Made by a program: the position numbers and the translations under genes. This document shows positions 14,861-38,000 of a DNA stretch of 64,000 bases, piece by piece. The notes beneath the pieces were generated by a model, which saw nothing but the letters and a program-made list of their open reading frames with translations, was not told the origin of the DNA and made no database searches. Location: positions 64,001-128,000 of IMG/VR virus record IMGVR_UViG_3300028603_000021. One strand, written 5' to 3'. Within the stretch, counting starts at the first letter, position 1, and every line of letters begins with the position of its first letter. This stretch comes from a virus. Lineage: Duplodnaviria; Caudoviricetes.

Positions 14861-15580
14861 ATGAATGACGTAACTTTGAGTGGGATTATAAGCGGATCGT
14901 TTCAGGAGTACGGTAACGACGGAATCCTGTTTAAGGCTGTTGTATCGGCTGGCAGTAACAACAGCGATGAATTCACGTGCTTAGCTTTCAGCAACAACGC
15001 CTCCTTCATCAAGCACAAGGGTAAGAGTGGTCAGCGCATCGTTTTCCAAGGCAGACTAGGTAGCGATAAACTCGGTACGGAAAACTACCACAGTGCCCTT
15101 ACTGTGGGTCGAGTCCTTGCGATAACTGACTCCGACAACGGTACTGACTCTGCATCTATCGTAGTCACAGGAGAATCCGAAGTACAGGATATCCGATACG
15201 TTGGGCAGAAAGAGACACCGTTGGTTCCCATCAAGATGACCAACCTCAGAAGCTTCCGAGGACGAGACGGGCAGACCAACACTTACAAGACATTCATCGG
15301 TGCCTCCGCATGGTCTGACAGGGCTGTGGCATTAAACGCTTCGTCTCCAGAGGGTGTCTACCCGCTGGTAGTCTCAGGATTCCTGAGGTCTAGGAACTAC
15401 GAGAACCAGGACGGCGACACCATCGAAAAGATTGATGTATGGGTGCAGGAGGTTCTACAGGGAGAAGGGCTCTTCGGTGACGAAGACTCCTCCCCGGCGG
15501 AGACTTCTAAGCTCGAGAAAAGCAGCAAAACCGAGAAGAAAGAGCCACGACGCGCTGCCGTTGACGACGCTCCTTTCTAA
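14861..15580 (+). CDS. ssb: single-stranded DNA-binding protein with two OB folds
   Basis: MNDVTLSG...FQGRL (OB1); VVTG...SAW...VSGFLRSRNYE (OB2); acidic tip DDAPF. Confidence 0.9.
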   Translation: MNDVTLSGIISGSFQEYGNDGILFKAVVSAGSNNSDEFTCLAFSNNASFIKHKGKSGQRIVFQGRLGSDKLGTENYHSALTVGRVLAITDSDNGTDSASIVVTGESEVQDIRYVGQKETPLVPIKMTNLRSFRGRDGQTNTYKTFIGASAWSDRAVALNASSPEGVYPLVVSGFLRSRNYENQDGDTIEKIDVWVQEVLQGEGLFGDEDSSPAETSKLEKSSKTEKKEPRRAAVDDAPF

Positions 15581-15582
15581 AC

Positions 15583-15601
15583 ACGAGGGTAATTCCCTCG
15601 T
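15583..15601 (+). other. stem-loop right after the ssb stop and right before the ribozyme cleavage site
   Basis: ACGAGGG-TAATT-CCCTCGT; no U-tract. Confidence 0.7.
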
Positions 15602-15602
15602 A

Positions 15603-15658
15603 GACTCGCAGACTGATTGCCTCCACGTGGCGCGAGTTGGGTCAAGCTAAACATCAGT
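15603..15658 (+). ncRNA. minimal HDV-like self-cleaving ribozyme (no P4)
   Basis: P1 GACUCGC/GCGAGUU with first G-U pair; P2 ACUGAU/AUCAGU; P3 GCC/GGC; L3 UCCACGU; P1.1 CC/GG; J4/2 GCUAA with catalytic C15647. Confidence 0.85.
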
Positions 15659-15659
15659 A

Positions 15660-15795
15660 CGGTTCGTGGTTGACACCCACACTGAAAACCGCATGGAAAA
15701 GGCACTCGCTCAGGATAATGGTTCAAATTCTTCCGATAAATAGCACTCGACTAGGTGGAAGCCCAAACAGAGTGTGGCGGGTGCCTGGAACATGC
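15660..15795 (+). ncRNA. unclassified structured RNA with three T-loop-like hairpins
   Basis: Nested stems CGGUU/AACCG, GCAUG/CAUGC, GGCACUCGCU/GGCGGGUGCC, GCACUC/GAGUGU; 7-nt loops UUGACAC, UUCAAAU, UGGAAGC. Confidence 0.6.
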
Positions 15796-15811
15796 ACGAG
15801 AAAGGGGTAAG

Positions 15812-16339
15812 ATGCTAGTAGGTATATCGGGCAAGAAAAGGGTAGGGAAAGACACATTCTACCAGCTGTCAAAAAGCCACTTAGAACACAAAGTTCCAGG
15901 CATAAAAGTAAGAAAATACTCCTTTGCAGATGCAGTTAAGCAGTACGCTGTAACATATTTTAAAACTAACCCAGAAGATAAAGAAGTAACTAGGTACATA
16001 CTACAGGGCATCGGACAGATGATGCGAGATGTTGTACGTAAAGACTACTGGATAGAGAAAGTACTTAACCTGTACGAACTAGATGTGCTAGTCGGAGGTG
16101 TTGACGTAGGGTTTGTCACCGATGTACGCTACACAAACGAAGCTGATATCTTCCACGACGACGATCTGTTGGTCAGAGTCACAGCACCCATCCTCCACTC
16201 AGACCCCCACCCCAGCGAAACAGCTCTGGATAACTATCACTTTGAGTACATGATAAACAACGATGGAACACTAGAAGAGTACAAAAGAAAGGTGGAAGAA
16301 TGGACGGACAAGATGATACTCCCCAGATTGATGAAGTAG
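15812..16339 (+). CDS. deoxynucleoside monophosphate kinase
   Basis: GISGKKRVGKDT P-loop, SFADAVK, RYILQGIG, TDVRYTNE, HPSE; real start ATG 15812 after AAGGGG. Confidence 0.9.
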   Translation: MLVGISGKKRVGKDTFYQLSKSHLEHKVPGIKVRKYSFADAVKQYAVTYFKTNPEDKEVTRYILQGIGQMMRDVVRKDYWIEKVLNLYELDVLVGGVDVGFVTDVRYTNEADIFHDDDLLVRVTAPILHSDPHPSETALDNYHFEYMINNDGTLEEYKRKVEEWTDKMILPRLMK

Positions 16340-35037: not shown

Positions 35038-38000
35038 TCTTCACTTTCCTCCGGTACTTTTTTCGTCTCATCCCACATCTTCTGATCAACCGCGCCAAAC
35101 AGGTTGCCGTAATCTCCGGGTTGAGGCGGCCTGTATATGCCAAGAGCATCCTTGTTTTCAAATGATGCTGGCAGATCCCGGTCAGGGAACGAAATTCCCT
35201 TGGCTTTTTTCATGAAGATTGCATCAGCTTTGTACTGCTGTACTACCTCATTCACACGTTCCATATCTGGTGTAGGTGATACAACCACCTCGTTGAAAAC
35301 TTCTTTGGTGGCTTCTTCAGTCGATGTAGTAGACTCTAGCCCCTCCATAAGAGCTATATCATACATGTAGTTGGATGTATTCCTGAAGCCCTGTGCATTG
35401 TAGAGGAAATTTCCTTTCTTGAAGAGCTGATCTTCTTTAAACTGCTCTACGAACATATTCTGCAACGGGCTCAGGACGCTAGCGCCTGGTGTGTCGCTGT
35501 AAGTTTCATACATCACATCACGCTGAATCTTAGACTCCCAGCCTATGCGCATCTTCTTCTCTAGAGAAAGGAAGCCTACAGGTAGAAAGTTTCTGGGTTC
35601 TAGCAAGATAAGGTTATCCTGGCCGAAGTTGAGGCTCAGTGCGGTTGTCGCCTCAGTATCCTGGGTAAATGTGTGTGACACCCTCTCTATCAGATACGAA
35701 GTTACTCTGAAGTCCTGGAACCGTATCGCATTCATAACTCCAGCCGCAGTTCTCTTCTGGTAGATGGCGTTCAGCGTGTCGGCAGCCCCTCTGTCCCCAG
35801 TCAAAGCAGAGCTTAGCAGTGCACTGTATGTATCCACGACATCGGACGGAAGAACTGCGTTTTCGTCCCAACCACGGAATGTTCCAGACCCATCAGGGGG
35901 GTCTCCCTGTGTAAAATACCAGTACGTAGTAGGAAAATACTCTGGGGTTATCACTGATACCCCAGGGGCTGAATTTTTTATGAAAAGCAAGGTGGATACT
36001 ATAGCTCTCCGTACAAAGTCCTTTGGGTCAGTACGAAACGCTGTAGACGAGACCCCAGGTATAGGCTCAAAACCAGTGGTTTTCTCATAGTATTCTGGGT
36101 GCAAAAGCCTCTCATCGACCCCTATATACATGTCCATAGAGTCTCTATCCATACCTTCGAGCCAGCTGATGAGCTTATCAATATCTACCGGAGTCCTAGC
36201 ACGATATTTACTGTTCTGTAGGGATACAAGCACTGTTTCTCCAGCCCGAAACGCTGGGTTCCCTCTGACTCTGAGGTTGGCTTGTTTCAGGGGCTTGCTA
36301 AAGAAATCCCGGTATATAATAGCTTTGCGCTGTGCCTCTCTTGGCTGGCTAGTATAGATGTCTTCTGTGCGTTGAGACCTCATGCCATAGCGAAAGAAAT
36401 CTGGGGCTATAGTCTCAGGAGGAGCTTCTGGTGGAAGATTTATAAGTGGGACTTCTCCCGCCTCAGGAACACTTCTACCCATAAAGGCAAGTCCCATCCT
36501 AGCGGTAGCTCCGTCACCGGTTAGTGGCCTGACATCTATCATGGTCTTAAGCTCCGCGTCAGACTGCTCGAAGGAAGCTCCCTCACCGAGCATGTCTATG
36601 TCTTGTATTATCGGAGTGTACAACGGCTGTGGAGTCCTATCCATACCTTCGAACGTGAGCCTGTATCTTATCCTACCGGTCTCATCAACAAAAACCTGGT
36701 AAAAAGCCCCAACTCCAACTACTCGCTTCAAGTTAGAGTAGATAGATTCACCCGGAGACAGCATTACACTAGTGTTTATCACTGCTTGTTGTTCCGGTAT
36801 AGTATACGATTTATCTAGCACCGAAATCATTTCTCTTATCCTGGTAGTATCTACGTAGTTAACCGGAGAAAATACCCGTAGTTTAGACTTATCAACTTCT
36901 CCCCTAGCCATGATAGCTTCAGACATGACTACATTACCACGGATAGGAACCTCTTCCTCTAAGTCAAGGTGGTCAACATCTATAGCTATGATACTTTCTT
37001 TGTTATCAGGAAGATCTTTGTACTTATACCCCTTAGACTGTACCCACAGCTTGTTAGCCGCGTCGATATAATAAGAGCTGGGTTTACCGAAGAGAATCTT
37101 CTTAGGTGCCCACCTGTTGACTATAGCCAGTATTGCTCTAGGCGGAGACATGTACACGAAAAAGCTCTTGTAGTCAGCTTGGAGCTTAGCCATGTAGTCA
37201 GCGGCATAGATAGACTCATAGAAAACCTCATGCTCGTTTATGATCTTCTCCATGCCACCACCAGAGATAGTTACAGTATATGCTCCCTGCGCAGATCCAA
37301 CTGCGGTTTTGACAGTACTTATCTGACCACGAAGCACTAGATACGGGGTCTCACCGTGCGTCGGTTTCTCTGCCCCAGAGGTTATGATAGTTCTGCCGTT
37401 AGAAAAATTCTGTCTTGTCTTTGTTACCAAATGCTTGCTTCTTCTACCCTCAGAATCTAAGTGAGTGTTAGATGCTCCAAGGTAGTCTGACAACTCCTTG
37501 TTCATCGACGCTACAAACAAGTTCAGCCCGTTAACAATAGTTGACGGCTGCCCAAGCAAGTCAAAAAACTCTAAGTACCCAGCAGTCCCCGTACCCATGG
37601 AGGCTGCTTCCATAACTGTTTGCTCGTCATCAGATAAAAGCAGCTCTCCGCTATCACTAACTTCAAGCTTGCTTATAAAGTAACGTAGCATCTCTTTCCT
37701 CTTTCGGTTAACTACCTCTATATTCCACCCATCTTTTACTTCATAGTCCTTAGAGGTCATGGGCTTCATCAGGAATTCATAGATAAAATGCCCAATGTCA
37801 TCACCAAACATCTGTTTGGTGTATTTCTCCATCCTACCTTCGATGTCATTTCCGTCGGTGTCTAGCTTGGAGGCTCTTTCTGTGAAACTGCTGCCAGCGA
37901 CAGACTCTTGCAGAAAGCTGTTGAAGATGTCAGCCAAGTTCTCCTTGGTAACCCCTTTCACACGAGTTTCTGGTAGGTCAGACAGAACAGCTTCCATAGT

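What the first reader, a model, noticed from the sequence alone, without database searches (positions are those of the whole stretch)
15660..15795. Unclassified structured RNA with three T-loop-like hairpins directly downstream of the ribozyme
Seen: in a genome with very little intergenic DNA, about 135 nt fold into nested helices (CGGUU/AACCG; GCAUG/CAUGC closing GGCACUCGCU/GGCGGGUGCC; GGA/UCC; GCACUC/GAGUGU). Three arms end in 7-nt loops resembling tRNA T-loops: GUGG-UUGACAC-CCAC, GG-UUCAAAU-UC and GG-UGGAAGC-CC. It is not a tRNA (no D arm, anticodon arm or CCA). Known: paired T-loops form tRNA-elbow-binding platforms (RNase P, T-box, L1 stalk) and occur in tRNA mimics such as bacterial Y RNAs. 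Inference: ribozyme plus this RNA may be one cassette, either a self-maturing phage ncRNA (for example a decoy for RNA-sensing defences) or a nucleotide-sensing leader for the dNMP kinase-dUTPase genes whose RBS follows the last stem. With the ribozyme, this is the best candidate for an undescribed system in the window.
Basis: partly seen in the sequence, partly recalled or inferred. Interest (0 to 1): 0.78.

Follow-up and report, generated by a model that had tools for sequence, protein, structure and literature searches.

The report
New phage tRNA-cluster structured RNA family
The 135-base stretch is a real, evolutionarily maintained folded RNA from a widespread, uncatalogued family that large phages usually carry inside their tRNA gene clusters; here it sits alone behind a self-cleaving ribozyme, and its function is unknown.

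Summary

- **Family.** The core (15701-15785) has about 47 distinct relatives in viral and metagenome contigs. Cultured carriers are Klebsiella phages KP13-26, FKP3 and KP2025 and Acinetobacter phage ME3.
- **Fold.** It is a three-way junction with a long closing stem P1. Arm P2 carries an almost invariant 16-nt loop. A covarying arm P3 ends in a 2-bp helix capped by an invariant UGNAA T-loop signature.
- **Covariation.** Window class: 92.9% paired, score 0.358 against 0.091 shuffled. Second class: 99.8% paired, 0.432 against 0.185. One natural circular permutation exists.
- **Databases.** No Rfam 15 family matches, including YrlA. I found no paper describing it.
- **Context.** 38 of about 47 members lie within 300 nt of a tRNA gene. 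359 of 361 tRNAs within 2 kb are on the same strand.
- **This phage.** It is a 190-kb phage with a 28-tRNA cluster 43 kb away and a single copy of the element.
- **Rejected readings.** The nucleotide-sensing leader and the conserved ribozyme cassette are not supported. The second and third "T-loops" are not established.

Best reading: a small stable non-coding RNA that acts in trans on tRNA-related machinery. That function is inferred, not shown.

The parts
15583..15601 (+). 7-bp hairpin (ACGAGGG-UAAUU-CCCUCGU) right after the ssb stop codon (15578-15580), ending one base before the predicted ribozyme cut. It is the likely protective 3' end of the ssb message.
   Evidence: Sequence and fold. 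There is no U tract, and it is not called a terminator.
15603..15658 (+). Minimal HDV-like (theta-type) self-cleaving ribozyme candidate. The predicted cut lies between 15602 and 15603, so it severs everything upstream and stays attached to the RNA downstream.
   Evidence: Sub-threshold Rfam matches: RF02682 20.5 bits (E 0.17) and RF00094 20.7 bits. All helices were found by my descriptor. A paralogous core, GCCUCCACGUGGC, lies about 80 nt after tRNA-Met in the same genome.
15660..15691 (+). 5' accessory hairpin ('hairpin A'): GUGG/CCAC with loop UUGACAC on a lower stem, either CGGUU/AACCG or CGGU/ACUG.
   Evidence: Folds. Equivalent hairpins with YUGACA-type loops and covarying stems occur in L001, L140, L133, L141, L149, L134 and L142. 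The hairpin is absent where a tRNA ends 2-13 nt upstream.
15691..15695 (+). 5' strand of the outer closing helix GCAUG. It pairs with 15791-15795.
   Evidence: Folds. This helix is window-specific. Relatives have other outer helices, for example 18 bp in L133.
15701..15710 (+). P1 5' strand, GGCACUCGCU. It pairs with 15776-15785.
   Evidence: Family core CGCU/GGCG with covarying outer pairs. In class B the equivalent closing pair covaries as C-G and U-A.
15713..15734 (+). P2 arm: GGA (15713-15) pairs with UCC (15732-34) around the near-invariant 16-nt loop UAAUGGUUCAAAUUCU (15716-31).
   Evidence: The third pair is UA, UG or AU across the family. The extra outer pair in class B is C-G or U-A. 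The loop sequence retrieved 44 viral contigs as a search pattern.
15735..15742 (+). Junction strand J2/3, GAUAAAUA. It is invariant in the window's class.
   Evidence: Alignments A3 and A4.
15743..15775 (+). P3 arm: GCACUC (15743-48) pairs with GAGUGU (15770-75). An internal loop (GACUA / AAACA) follows, then the 2-bp helix GG (15754-55) with CC (15763-64) capped by UGGAAGC (15756-62), which carries the T-loop signature UGNAA.
   Evidence: In the 10-sequence alignment 4 of 6 P3 pairs show double changes. In the 21-sequence alignment 5 of 6 do. The 2-bp helix covaries in class B. UGNAA is kept in all 21 distinct class A sequences and in 20 of the 21 aligned class B sequences; L168 reads GGGGAAGG.
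15776..15785 (+). P1 3' strand, GGCGGGUGCC. It is contiguous with the P3 3' strand, with no spacer.
15791..15795 (+). 3' strand of the outer closing helix, CAUGC.
   Evidence: Folds.
15801..15814 (+). Ribosome-binding site AAAGGGG and ATG (15812) of the dNMP kinase gene. This is a neighbour, not part of the RNA family.
   Evidence: Translation from 15812 gives a DNMK-family kinase with an N-terminal P-loop.

Best explanation
The stretch is a gene for a small, independently folding non-coding RNA. It belongs to a previously uncatalogued family that large phages carry together with their tRNA genes.

**Shown.**
- The family exists and its three-way-junction fold is maintained by selection.
- There is one copy per genome in the five records tested.
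- The usual location is a 'tRNA slot' inside tRNA arrays, on the tRNA strand.

**In this phage.** The gene lies outside the 28-tRNA cluster, in the ssb to dNMP-kinase spacer, with no promoter or terminator of its own. It must therefore be transcribed with the operon.

**Inferred, processing.** The HDV-like ribozyme just upstream cuts it away from the ssb message. This does the job that processing of flanking tRNAs does elsewhere. The long closing stem and compact core make the RNA stable.

**Inferred, function.** The conserved single-stranded core consists of the 16-nt P2 loop, the A-rich junction and the UGNAA T-loop. It would be a binding surface that acts in trans on a tRNA-related partner. 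That partner could be tRNA itself or a tRNA-processing or tRNA-repair protein.
For: - **Homologs.** Pattern scans found them. Model R1 hits members at 32.6-110 bits and hits only one of about 70 background loci. That one (L038) is itself a divergent member in a tRNA array.
- **Covariation.**
- **Circular permutation.** The natural permutation in L136 keeps all helices.
- **Copy number.** One copy each in G000-G004.
- **Context.** 38 of about 47 members lie within 300 nt of a tRNA, and 359 of 361 nearby tRNAs are on the same strand.
- **This genome.** It has 28 tRNAs at 15-37 kb, while the element sits at 79.7 kb.
- **Transcription.** No promoter or terminator was found on the + strand.
- **Other non-array copy.** L133 has an 18-bp closing stalk and sits among phosphoesterase, phosphatase, RNA-repair HAD and 3'-5' exoribonuclease genes.
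- **RNA repair genes.** RtcB and/or an RNA ligase are present in G000, G001 and G007.
Against:
- No consistent protein partner emerged. TROVE/Ro60 is in 1 of 5 genomes. The Klebsiella-type phage record G002 (same type as KP13-26) lacks RtcB, RNA ligase and TROVE.
- The ribozyme stays attached to the 5' side.
- Nothing predicts a cut between the RNA and the kinase RBS 6 nt after the outer stem. In this phage the RNA may therefore remain a 5' leader.
- A trans role is argued from location and copy number only.
Confidence: 0.55

Rival explanations
1. Cis-acting processing or stability element of polycistronic transcripts. Candidate roles are a self-cleaving ribozyme of a new class, an RNase III or RNase P entry site, or an exonuclease block. 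It would shape the ends of neighbouring tRNAs or mRNAs and have no role of its own.
For: - It is always co-oriented with, and tightly packed between, transcribed RNAs: 2-10 nt after a tRNA and 7-10 nt before the next.
- Closing stems are long: 14-18 bp in L133 and the four-way subclass.
- Circular permutation is typical of small self-cleaving ribozymes.
- It lies next to another ribozyme here.
Against: - There is one copy per genome, even in arrays of 20-28 tRNAs. A general processing signal should recur.
- About 35 loop and junction nucleotides are near-invariant across very different phages. That exceeds what a nuclease entry site needs.
- No known ribozyme model matches.
Confidence: 0.2
2. 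Riboswitch or regulatory leader. The three-way junction would bind a small ligand or a tRNA and control the downstream genes (here dNMP kinase and dUTPase).
For: - The topology resembles junction-type aptamers.
- The kinase RBS follows 6 nt after the outer stem.
- In the four-way subclass the long P1 is followed by a run of 4-6 U.
Against: - Downstream 'genes' are tRNAs in most members. In L133 the downstream gene is a HAD RNA-repair protein, and in ME3 it is a non-coding gap.
- No alternative pairing or expression platform is conserved.
- The permuted copy closes P1 with a loop, which an aptamer that switches through P1 could not tolerate.
Confidence: 0.07
3. Y-RNA-like partner of Ro60 or of an RNA-repair complex. 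The long stem would bind a ring protein and the junction module would mimic tRNA.
For: - The architecture is modular, with a long stem plus a T-loop-bearing head.
- Phage Y RNAs lie near tRNAs (PMC4201824).
- L133 has an RNA-repair neighbourhood.
- RtcB and an RNA ligase are present in G000 and G001, and TROVE in G001.
Against: - The Rfam YrlA model does not match any member.
- TROVE is absent from 4 of 5 genomes. In G001 it lies 33 kb from the element.
- The Klebsiella-type phage record G002 has none of these proteins.
Confidence: 0.1
4. Coding or chance. The stretch would be an N-terminal extension of the kinase (GTG at 15755), or a fortuitous fold.
For: An open frame runs from 15755 into the kinase gene. 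The fold z-score is only -2.06.
Against: - The same sequence is conserved between tRNA genes, where no such frame exists.
- Substitutions are compensatory in helices, not synonymous.
- The kinase P-loop begins at residue 5 when translation starts at ATG 15812.
Confidence: 0.01

Closest known systems
Phage T4 small stable RNAs, species 1 (rnaC) and species 2 (rnaD), in the T4 tRNA cluster
   Same: These are small non-tRNA RNAs annotated as 'small, stable RNA' inside a phage tRNA gene cluster, on the tRNA strand and abutting tRNA-Arg. From general knowledge, they are released by tRNA processing and their function is unknown.
   Different: There is no sequence or model similarity. R1 gives no hit on the T4 locus L131. 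rnaC ends in a canonical tRNA T arm. This family has a three-way junction with a UGNAA loop.
Bacterial and phage Y RNAs (YrlA, Rfam RF02553) with Ro60
   Same: Both have a long terminal stem plus a head that borrows tRNA-type loops. Both occur in phages near tRNAs and RNA-repair genes (PMC4201824).
   Different: RF02553 does not match. There is no canonical T arm or D arm. Ro60 is absent from 4 of 5 carrier genomes.
[quoted passage not shown]
   Same: Both carry a UGNNA pentaloop closed by a short helix. In those RNAs this loop is half of the tRNA-elbow docking platform (PMC3664808).
   Different: No conserved unpaired AGNNA partner is present. An apparent likeness to RNase P ('GG-UGAAA ... 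CC-AAAUAGG') fell when an actual RNase P RNA was aligned to RF00010.
GOLLD and ROOL RNAs
   Same: They are phage or prophage structured RNAs of unknown function, typically beside tRNA genes (abstracts).
   Different: From general knowledge they are several-fold larger. No Rfam family, these included, matched the element.
Theta / minimal HDV-like ribozymes of phages
   Same: They occur in the same genomes and in tRNA contexts (PMC10879173). One lies directly upstream here.
   Different: The ribozyme is a separate element (15603-15658). It accompanies the family member only in this phage.

Membership tests
Any Rfam 15 family | Covariance-model match at or near the gathering score | tested here: not met
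   There were 0 hits at gathering over the whole window. Nothing overlapped 15660-15795 at E<=10. Nothing fell on the element in 17 homolog loci.
tRNA | Cloverleaf with anticodon arm, detectable by ARAGORN or RF00005 | tested here: not met
   ARAGORN found 0 genes in the window. RF00005 hits the flanking tRNAs but never the element.
YrlA / Y RNA | Match to RF02553 | tested here: not met
   RF02553 gives only weak hits on true tRNAs in L198 and none on any element.
YrlA / Y RNA | Ro60 (TROVE, PF05731) encoded in the same genome, usually adjacent | tested here: not met
   TROVE is present in G001 only, 33 kb from the element. It is absent from G000, G002, G003 and G004.
T-loop motif | Five-nucleotide U/A-N-N-N-A loop segment closed by a helix (sequence signature UGNNA) | tested here: met
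   UGNAA is kept in all 21 distinct class A sequences and in 20 of the 21 aligned class B sequences (L168 deviates). The closing 2-bp helix covaries.
T-loop motif | Three-dimensional fold with a 1-5 reverse-Hoogsteen pair and an intercalated base | not testable with these tools
   No RNA 3D prediction or probing is available here.
[quoted passage not shown] | Paired signature AGNNA ... UGNNA in two unpaired loops (PMC3664808) | tested here: not met
   UGNNA is present. No conserved unpaired AGNNA occurs in the P2 loop, J2/3 or the internal loops (alignments A3, A4, A6). The only AGG(N)UA string lies in the covarying P2 helix.
Bacterial RNase P RNA (specificity-domain fragment) | Same helix context for the GGUGAAA and CCAAAUAGG strings | tested here: not met
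   I aligned Citrobacter rnpB to RF00010. There the GG before UGAAA pairs upstream, and ggccAAAUAGG belongs to another helix system.
Riboswitch | Consistent location upstream of a functionally related gene set, with an expression platform | tested here: not met
   The downstream neighbours are tRNAs in most members. No conserved terminator or anti-terminator alternative was seen, and a permuted member exists.
Small self-cleaving ribozymes (hammerhead, twister, pistol, hatchet, twister-sister, HDV) | Match to the family model | tested here: not met
   No such model hits 15660-15795. Self-cleavage itself is not testable here.

The most novel reading that the evidence does not exclude
The family is a phage-encoded RNA that recognises or imitates the tRNA body through its T-loop and conserved 16-nt loop. 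It would work in trans on the phage's own tRNA supply. Possible roles are docking tRNAs or pre-tRNAs, guiding their processing or repair, or shielding them from host tRNA-targeting defences. That would make it a new class of tRNA-directed regulatory RNA, alongside RNase P, T-boxes and Y RNAs.
Probability: 0.22. Interest if true: 0.85.

Novelty: new variant of a known kind. Interest (0 to 1): 0.68.

Why it matters
Large phages carry tRNA clusters whose non-tRNA passengers are still unexplained half a century after the T4 species 1 and 2 RNAs were found. GOLLD and ROOL belong to the same puzzle.

This work defines another such passenger.
- It is a compact RNA of about 90-150 nt, with at least three structural classes.
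- It has a well-supported fold, a pseudoknotted T-loop module and a natural circular permutation.
- It is spread across gut, soil and aquatic phages.
- It is present in four cultured phages of Klebsiella and Acinetobacter, where it can be deleted and assayed.

Two copies lie outside tRNA arrays. Here the copy follows a ribozyme in a replication operon. In L133 it sits among RNA-end-healing genes. These contexts show that the RNA is a unit in its own right, not spacer sequence.

It also deserves an Rfam entry, so that these gaps stop being annotated as empty or as spurious small ORFs.

Tried and rejected
- **RNase P analogy.** From memory, the 'GG-UGAAA...CC-AAAUAGG' strings looked like the P10/P11 region of RNase P. 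Aligning a real rnpB to RF00010 showed different pairing partners. Rejected.
- **Double T-loop platform.** I looked for the AGNNA partner of the UGNNA loop and found none (alignments A3, A4, A6). In class B the upstream 'UGGAA' looked like a T-loop. It is instead the 3' strand of a covarying pseudoknot helix.
- **T4 rnaC and rnaD.** Both were fetched and compared, and there is no similarity.
- **Ro60 partnership.** TROVE is found in 1 of 5 genomes.
- **HAD_SAK_2.** The search gave no hits in 5 genomes. The control genomes were silent too, so this result is uninformative.
- **Specific neighbouring tRNA.** The neighbours vary: Arg, Lys, Ala, Phe, Met and His.
- **Tertiary covariation.** I looked for it between the P2 loop and the T-loop or internal loop. 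Only lineage-correlated changes appeared, so nothing is usable.
- **Noisy pattern.** TAATGGNTCAAATTC returned mostly chance hits. They served as background for the model search.
- **Class B in cultured phages.** blastn found nothing in the phage collection.
- **Literature.** Word and sequence-string searches found no description of the family.

Full report
**1. What is in the window**

The stretch lies in a 231-nt spacer between two genes.
- Upstream is an SSB-family gene (14861-15580).
- Downstream is a dNMP-kinase-family gene starting at ATG 15812. It is followed by dUTPase and a DnaG-type primase.

The spacer holds, in order:
- a 7-bp hairpin (15583-15601);
- a sub-threshold HDV-like ribozyme (15603-15658; RF02682 20.5 bits, RF00094 20.7 bits);
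- the finding (15660-15795);
- the kinase ribosome-binding site.

No sigma-70-like promoter or intrinsic terminator lies on the + strand between 14700 and 16500. ARAGORN finds no tRNA in the window. Rfam 15 gives no hit at gathering score anywhere in the window. Nothing overlaps the finding even at E<=10.

That is suggestive but not decisive.

**2. The key lead**

A sensitive blastn of 15400-16000 against 50,697 phage records matched only window 15706-15779. The match was 82% identical to an unannotated gap inside the tRNA arrays of Klebsiella phages KP13-26, FKP3 and KP2025, between tRNA-Phe and tRNA-Arg. The three-way alignment already showed compensatory changes:
- GGA/UCC becomes GGU/ACC.
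- GCACUC/GAGUGU becomes GCAACU/AGUUGU.

**3. The family**

Pattern scans built on the conserved single-stranded stretches gave about 20 distinct relatives of the window's type (class A) in viral and metagenome contigs.

A 10-sequence alignment with a hand-drawn structure gave these figures:
- 92.9% of cells are paired.
- The covariation score is 0.358, against 0.091 for shuffles (0 of 500 shuffles reach it).
- Slid partners score 0.02-0.085.
- Four of six P3 pairs carry double changes.

A covariance model (R1) recovered all members at 32.6-110 bits. Among about 70 unrelated background loci it hit only L038, which is itself a divergent member in a tRNA array. On the 21 distinct model-aligned sequences the score is 0.338 against 0.110.

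The class A fold, in window coordinates, is as follows.
- P1 is 15701-10 with 15776-85. The family core is CGCU/GGCG, with variable extensions.
- J1/2 is CA.
- P2 is 15713-15 with 15732-34. It encloses the near-invariant loop UAAUGGUUCAAAUUCU.
- J2/3 is GAUAAAUA.
- P3 is 15743-48 with 15770-75.
- An internal loop follows (GACUA / AAACA).
- A 2-bp helix GG/CC caps UGGAAGC.
- The P3 3' strand runs straight into the P1 3' strand.

A subclass carries one more hairpin after CCAAAC, which makes a four-way junction.

**4. A larger superfamily**

Searching with the P2-loop pattern alone returned 44 viral contigs, many of 100-380 kb. It also returned about a dozen true hits among 55 in species-representative genomes. 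One of these lies in the complete genome of Clostridiales bacterium CCNA10 and is identical to viral contigs.

Most belong to a second class (B). It shares P1, P2 with its loop, an A-rich J2/3, a 7-bp P3 with a bulged G, and the UGAAA loop. In class B an invariant CGC/GCG pairing crosses the 2-bp helix, which makes a small pseudoknot.

The gapless 21-sequence alignment A6 gave these figures:
- 99.8% of cells are paired.
- 10 of 22 pairs carry double changes.
- The covariation score is 0.432, against 0.185 for shuffles (0 of 500) and at most 0.114 when slid.
- The 2-bp helix that closes the T-loop appears as GC, AU, UA, CG and GU.

This is the only direct comparative support for that small helix. 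A third class (C: L162, L163, L180, L229) was seen but not analysed further.

**5. A natural circular permutation**

In L136 and L137 the order of the parts is changed:
- 3' strand of the extra hairpin, then 3' strand of P3, then 3' strand of P1;
- a 39-nt connecting loop;
- 5' strand of P1, then P2, then J2/3, then 5' strand of P3;
- the T-loop, then the 5' strand of the extra hairpin.

The fold program closes this RNA with the 7-bp terminal helix and closes P1 with a loop. This independently supports the helices. It also shows that free P1 ends and the 5' hairpin are dispensable.

**6. Context**

Among about 47 distinct true members:
- 38 have a tRNA gene within 300 nt;
- 359 of 361 tRNAs within 2 kb are on the same strand.

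Typical spacing is 2-10 nt after the CCA of one tRNA and 7-10 AU-rich nt before the next. The RNA therefore fills a tRNA slot.

Where no tRNA abuts its 5' side, a structured 5' domain is present. In class A this is hairpin A, with a YUGACA-type loop and a covarying stem. In class B it is a pseudoknotted domain of about 55 nt. The window's hairpin (15666-80) is of the class A kind.

The element is single-copy in all five phage records examined.

**7. The window's phage**

The record is a complete 190,018-bp uncultured phage. Its primase is below 30% identical to any cultured relative. It has 28 tRNA genes at 15-37 kb on the minus strand. The element lies 43 kb away, on the other strand, in the replication and nucleotide-metabolism operon. 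So it is not a cis part of the array.

My descriptor finds the HDV-like fold beside the element only in this phage. A paralogous ribozyme core, GCCUCCACGUGGC, lies about 80 nt after tRNA-Met in the cluster. It is established knowledge that HDV-like ribozymes cut at their own 5' end. The one at 15603 therefore releases the ssb message with its 3' hairpin, and it remains on the RNA that carries the element.

**8. Other copies outside tRNA arrays**

- **L133.** No tRNA lies on this 10-kb contig. The element has an 18-bp closing stalk. Two calcineurin-type phosphoesterases and two dual-specificity-phosphatase-like proteins lie upstream. A 'Swiss Army Knife' RNA-repair HAD domain (E 1e-26) and an Rv2179c-like 3'-5' exoribonuclease lie downstream.
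- **Acinetobacter phage ME3.** The element sits in a 1.37-kb non-coding gap, 530 nt before tRNA-Tyr.
- **L237.** It lies beside an HTH-M78 regulator gene.

RtcB and/or an Rnl-type RNA ligase are present in G000, G001 and G007, but not in the Klebsiella-type phage G002. TROVE/Ro60 is present only in G001, 33 kb from the element. The RNA-repair link is a hint, not a rule.

**9. What it most likely is**

- **Shown.** It is a selected RNA fold. It is single-copy per genome. It travels with phage tRNA sets, and it matches no catalogued family.
- **Inferred, origin.** It is a stable RNA, excised from polycistronic transcripts by processing of its neighbours. Here the ribozyme makes the upstream cut.
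- **Inferred, action.** It acts in trans through its invariant loops on something tRNA-related.
- **P1-P3 stack.** The contiguous P1 and P3 3' strands would let the two helices stack. In class B this would give 6 + 7 bp topped by a T-loop. That is reminiscent of the acceptor/T-arm stack of tRNA, which is 7 + 5 bp. The long P1 of class A argues against a strict tRNA measure.

I put 0.55 on this overall reading and about 0.95 on its first, structural part.

**10. Rivals**

- A cis processing element or new ribozyme: 0.2.
- A Y-RNA-like RNP partner: 0.1.
- A riboswitch or leader: 0.07.
- Coding or chance: 0.01.

The evidence for and against each is given in the Rival explanations section.

**11. 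Known relatives and novelty**

- **Closest in kind.** These are the T4 species 1 and 2 RNAs, which show no similarity. GOLLD and ROOL share the context but are much larger.
- **Closest in architecture.** These are Y RNAs, but the YrlA model does not match.
- **tRNA-elbow platform.** My own RNase P analogy fell when checked.
- **Literature.** Searches, including searches for the conserved strings, found nothing.

Earlier notes of this scan report other unannotated RNAs in phage tRNA arrays, but none with this sequence.

I class it as a new variant of a known kind: a phage tRNA-cluster-associated small structured RNA. It is a new family with its own fold.

Noticed in passing
window 15603-15658: HDV-like minimal ribozyme. 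All helices are present, but it scores only 20.5-20.7 bits against Rfam gathering scores of 44-50. A 7-bp hairpin (15583-15601) ends one base before the predicted cut, so cleavage would leave the ssb mRNA with a hairpin-protected 3' end.
   Followed up: partly
own genome G000 C1:34986-34998 (minus strand), outside the window: A second ribozyme core with the identical P3/L3 string GCCUCCACGUGGC lies about 80 nt downstream of tRNA-Met (35090-35165). A structured spacer separates the tRNA CCA from the cut site.
   Followed up: partly
L136 about 901-1020 (same core in L137): Naturally circularly permuted copy of the RNA. Its ends lie where the four-way subclass has its extra hairpin loop, and P1 is closed by a 39-nt loop.
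   Followed up: yes
L133 4660-8599: Gene island of two calcineurin-type phosphoesterases, two dual-specificity-phosphatase-like proteins, a HAD_SAK_2 RNA-repair domain protein and an Rv2179c-like exoribonuclease. The RNA is embedded between them, and an AAA ATPase lies upstream.
   Followed up: partly
class B loci, e.g. L038 8790-8850, L172, L173, L184, L202: About 55 nt upstream of the core there is a conserved pseudoknot: CCUAU...AUAGG crossing UUUUCC...GGAAAG. Both helices covary between lineages. It is absent where a tRNA ends 2-7 nt before P1.
   Followed up: partly
L010, L142, L145 (extra hairpin of the four-way subclass): The loop of the extra hairpin carries a conserved 15-nt string, ACGAUUAUUAUAGAU, in three otherwise diverged members. 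It has no obvious pairing partner.
   Followed up: no
G001 C1:78499-80754: The RtcB match is split into two pieces (profile positions 1-153 and 154-426) about 1 kb apart, inside one 797-aa open frame. This suggests an intein or an inserted domain.
   Followed up: no
window 15653-15658 and 15681-15685: The ribozyme's P2 3' strand (AUCAGU) can also pair with ACUGA in the internal loop of hairpin A. The fold of 15655-15800 chooses CAGU/ACUG. This is a possible competitor of the active ribozyme fold.
   Followed up: no
L253 (Acinetobacter phage ME3) 3234-4607: A 1.37-kb stretch without annotated genes holds the element. It probably contains further unannotated RNAs, and tRNAs lie on both sides.
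   Followed up: no
L002 2821-2991 (Klebsiella phage FKP3): An annotated 'hypothetical protein' CDS on the opposite strand overlaps tRNA-Phe next to the element. Other small CDSs are annotated within this tRNA array too. They are probably spurious calls in RNA-coding DNA.
   Followed up: no
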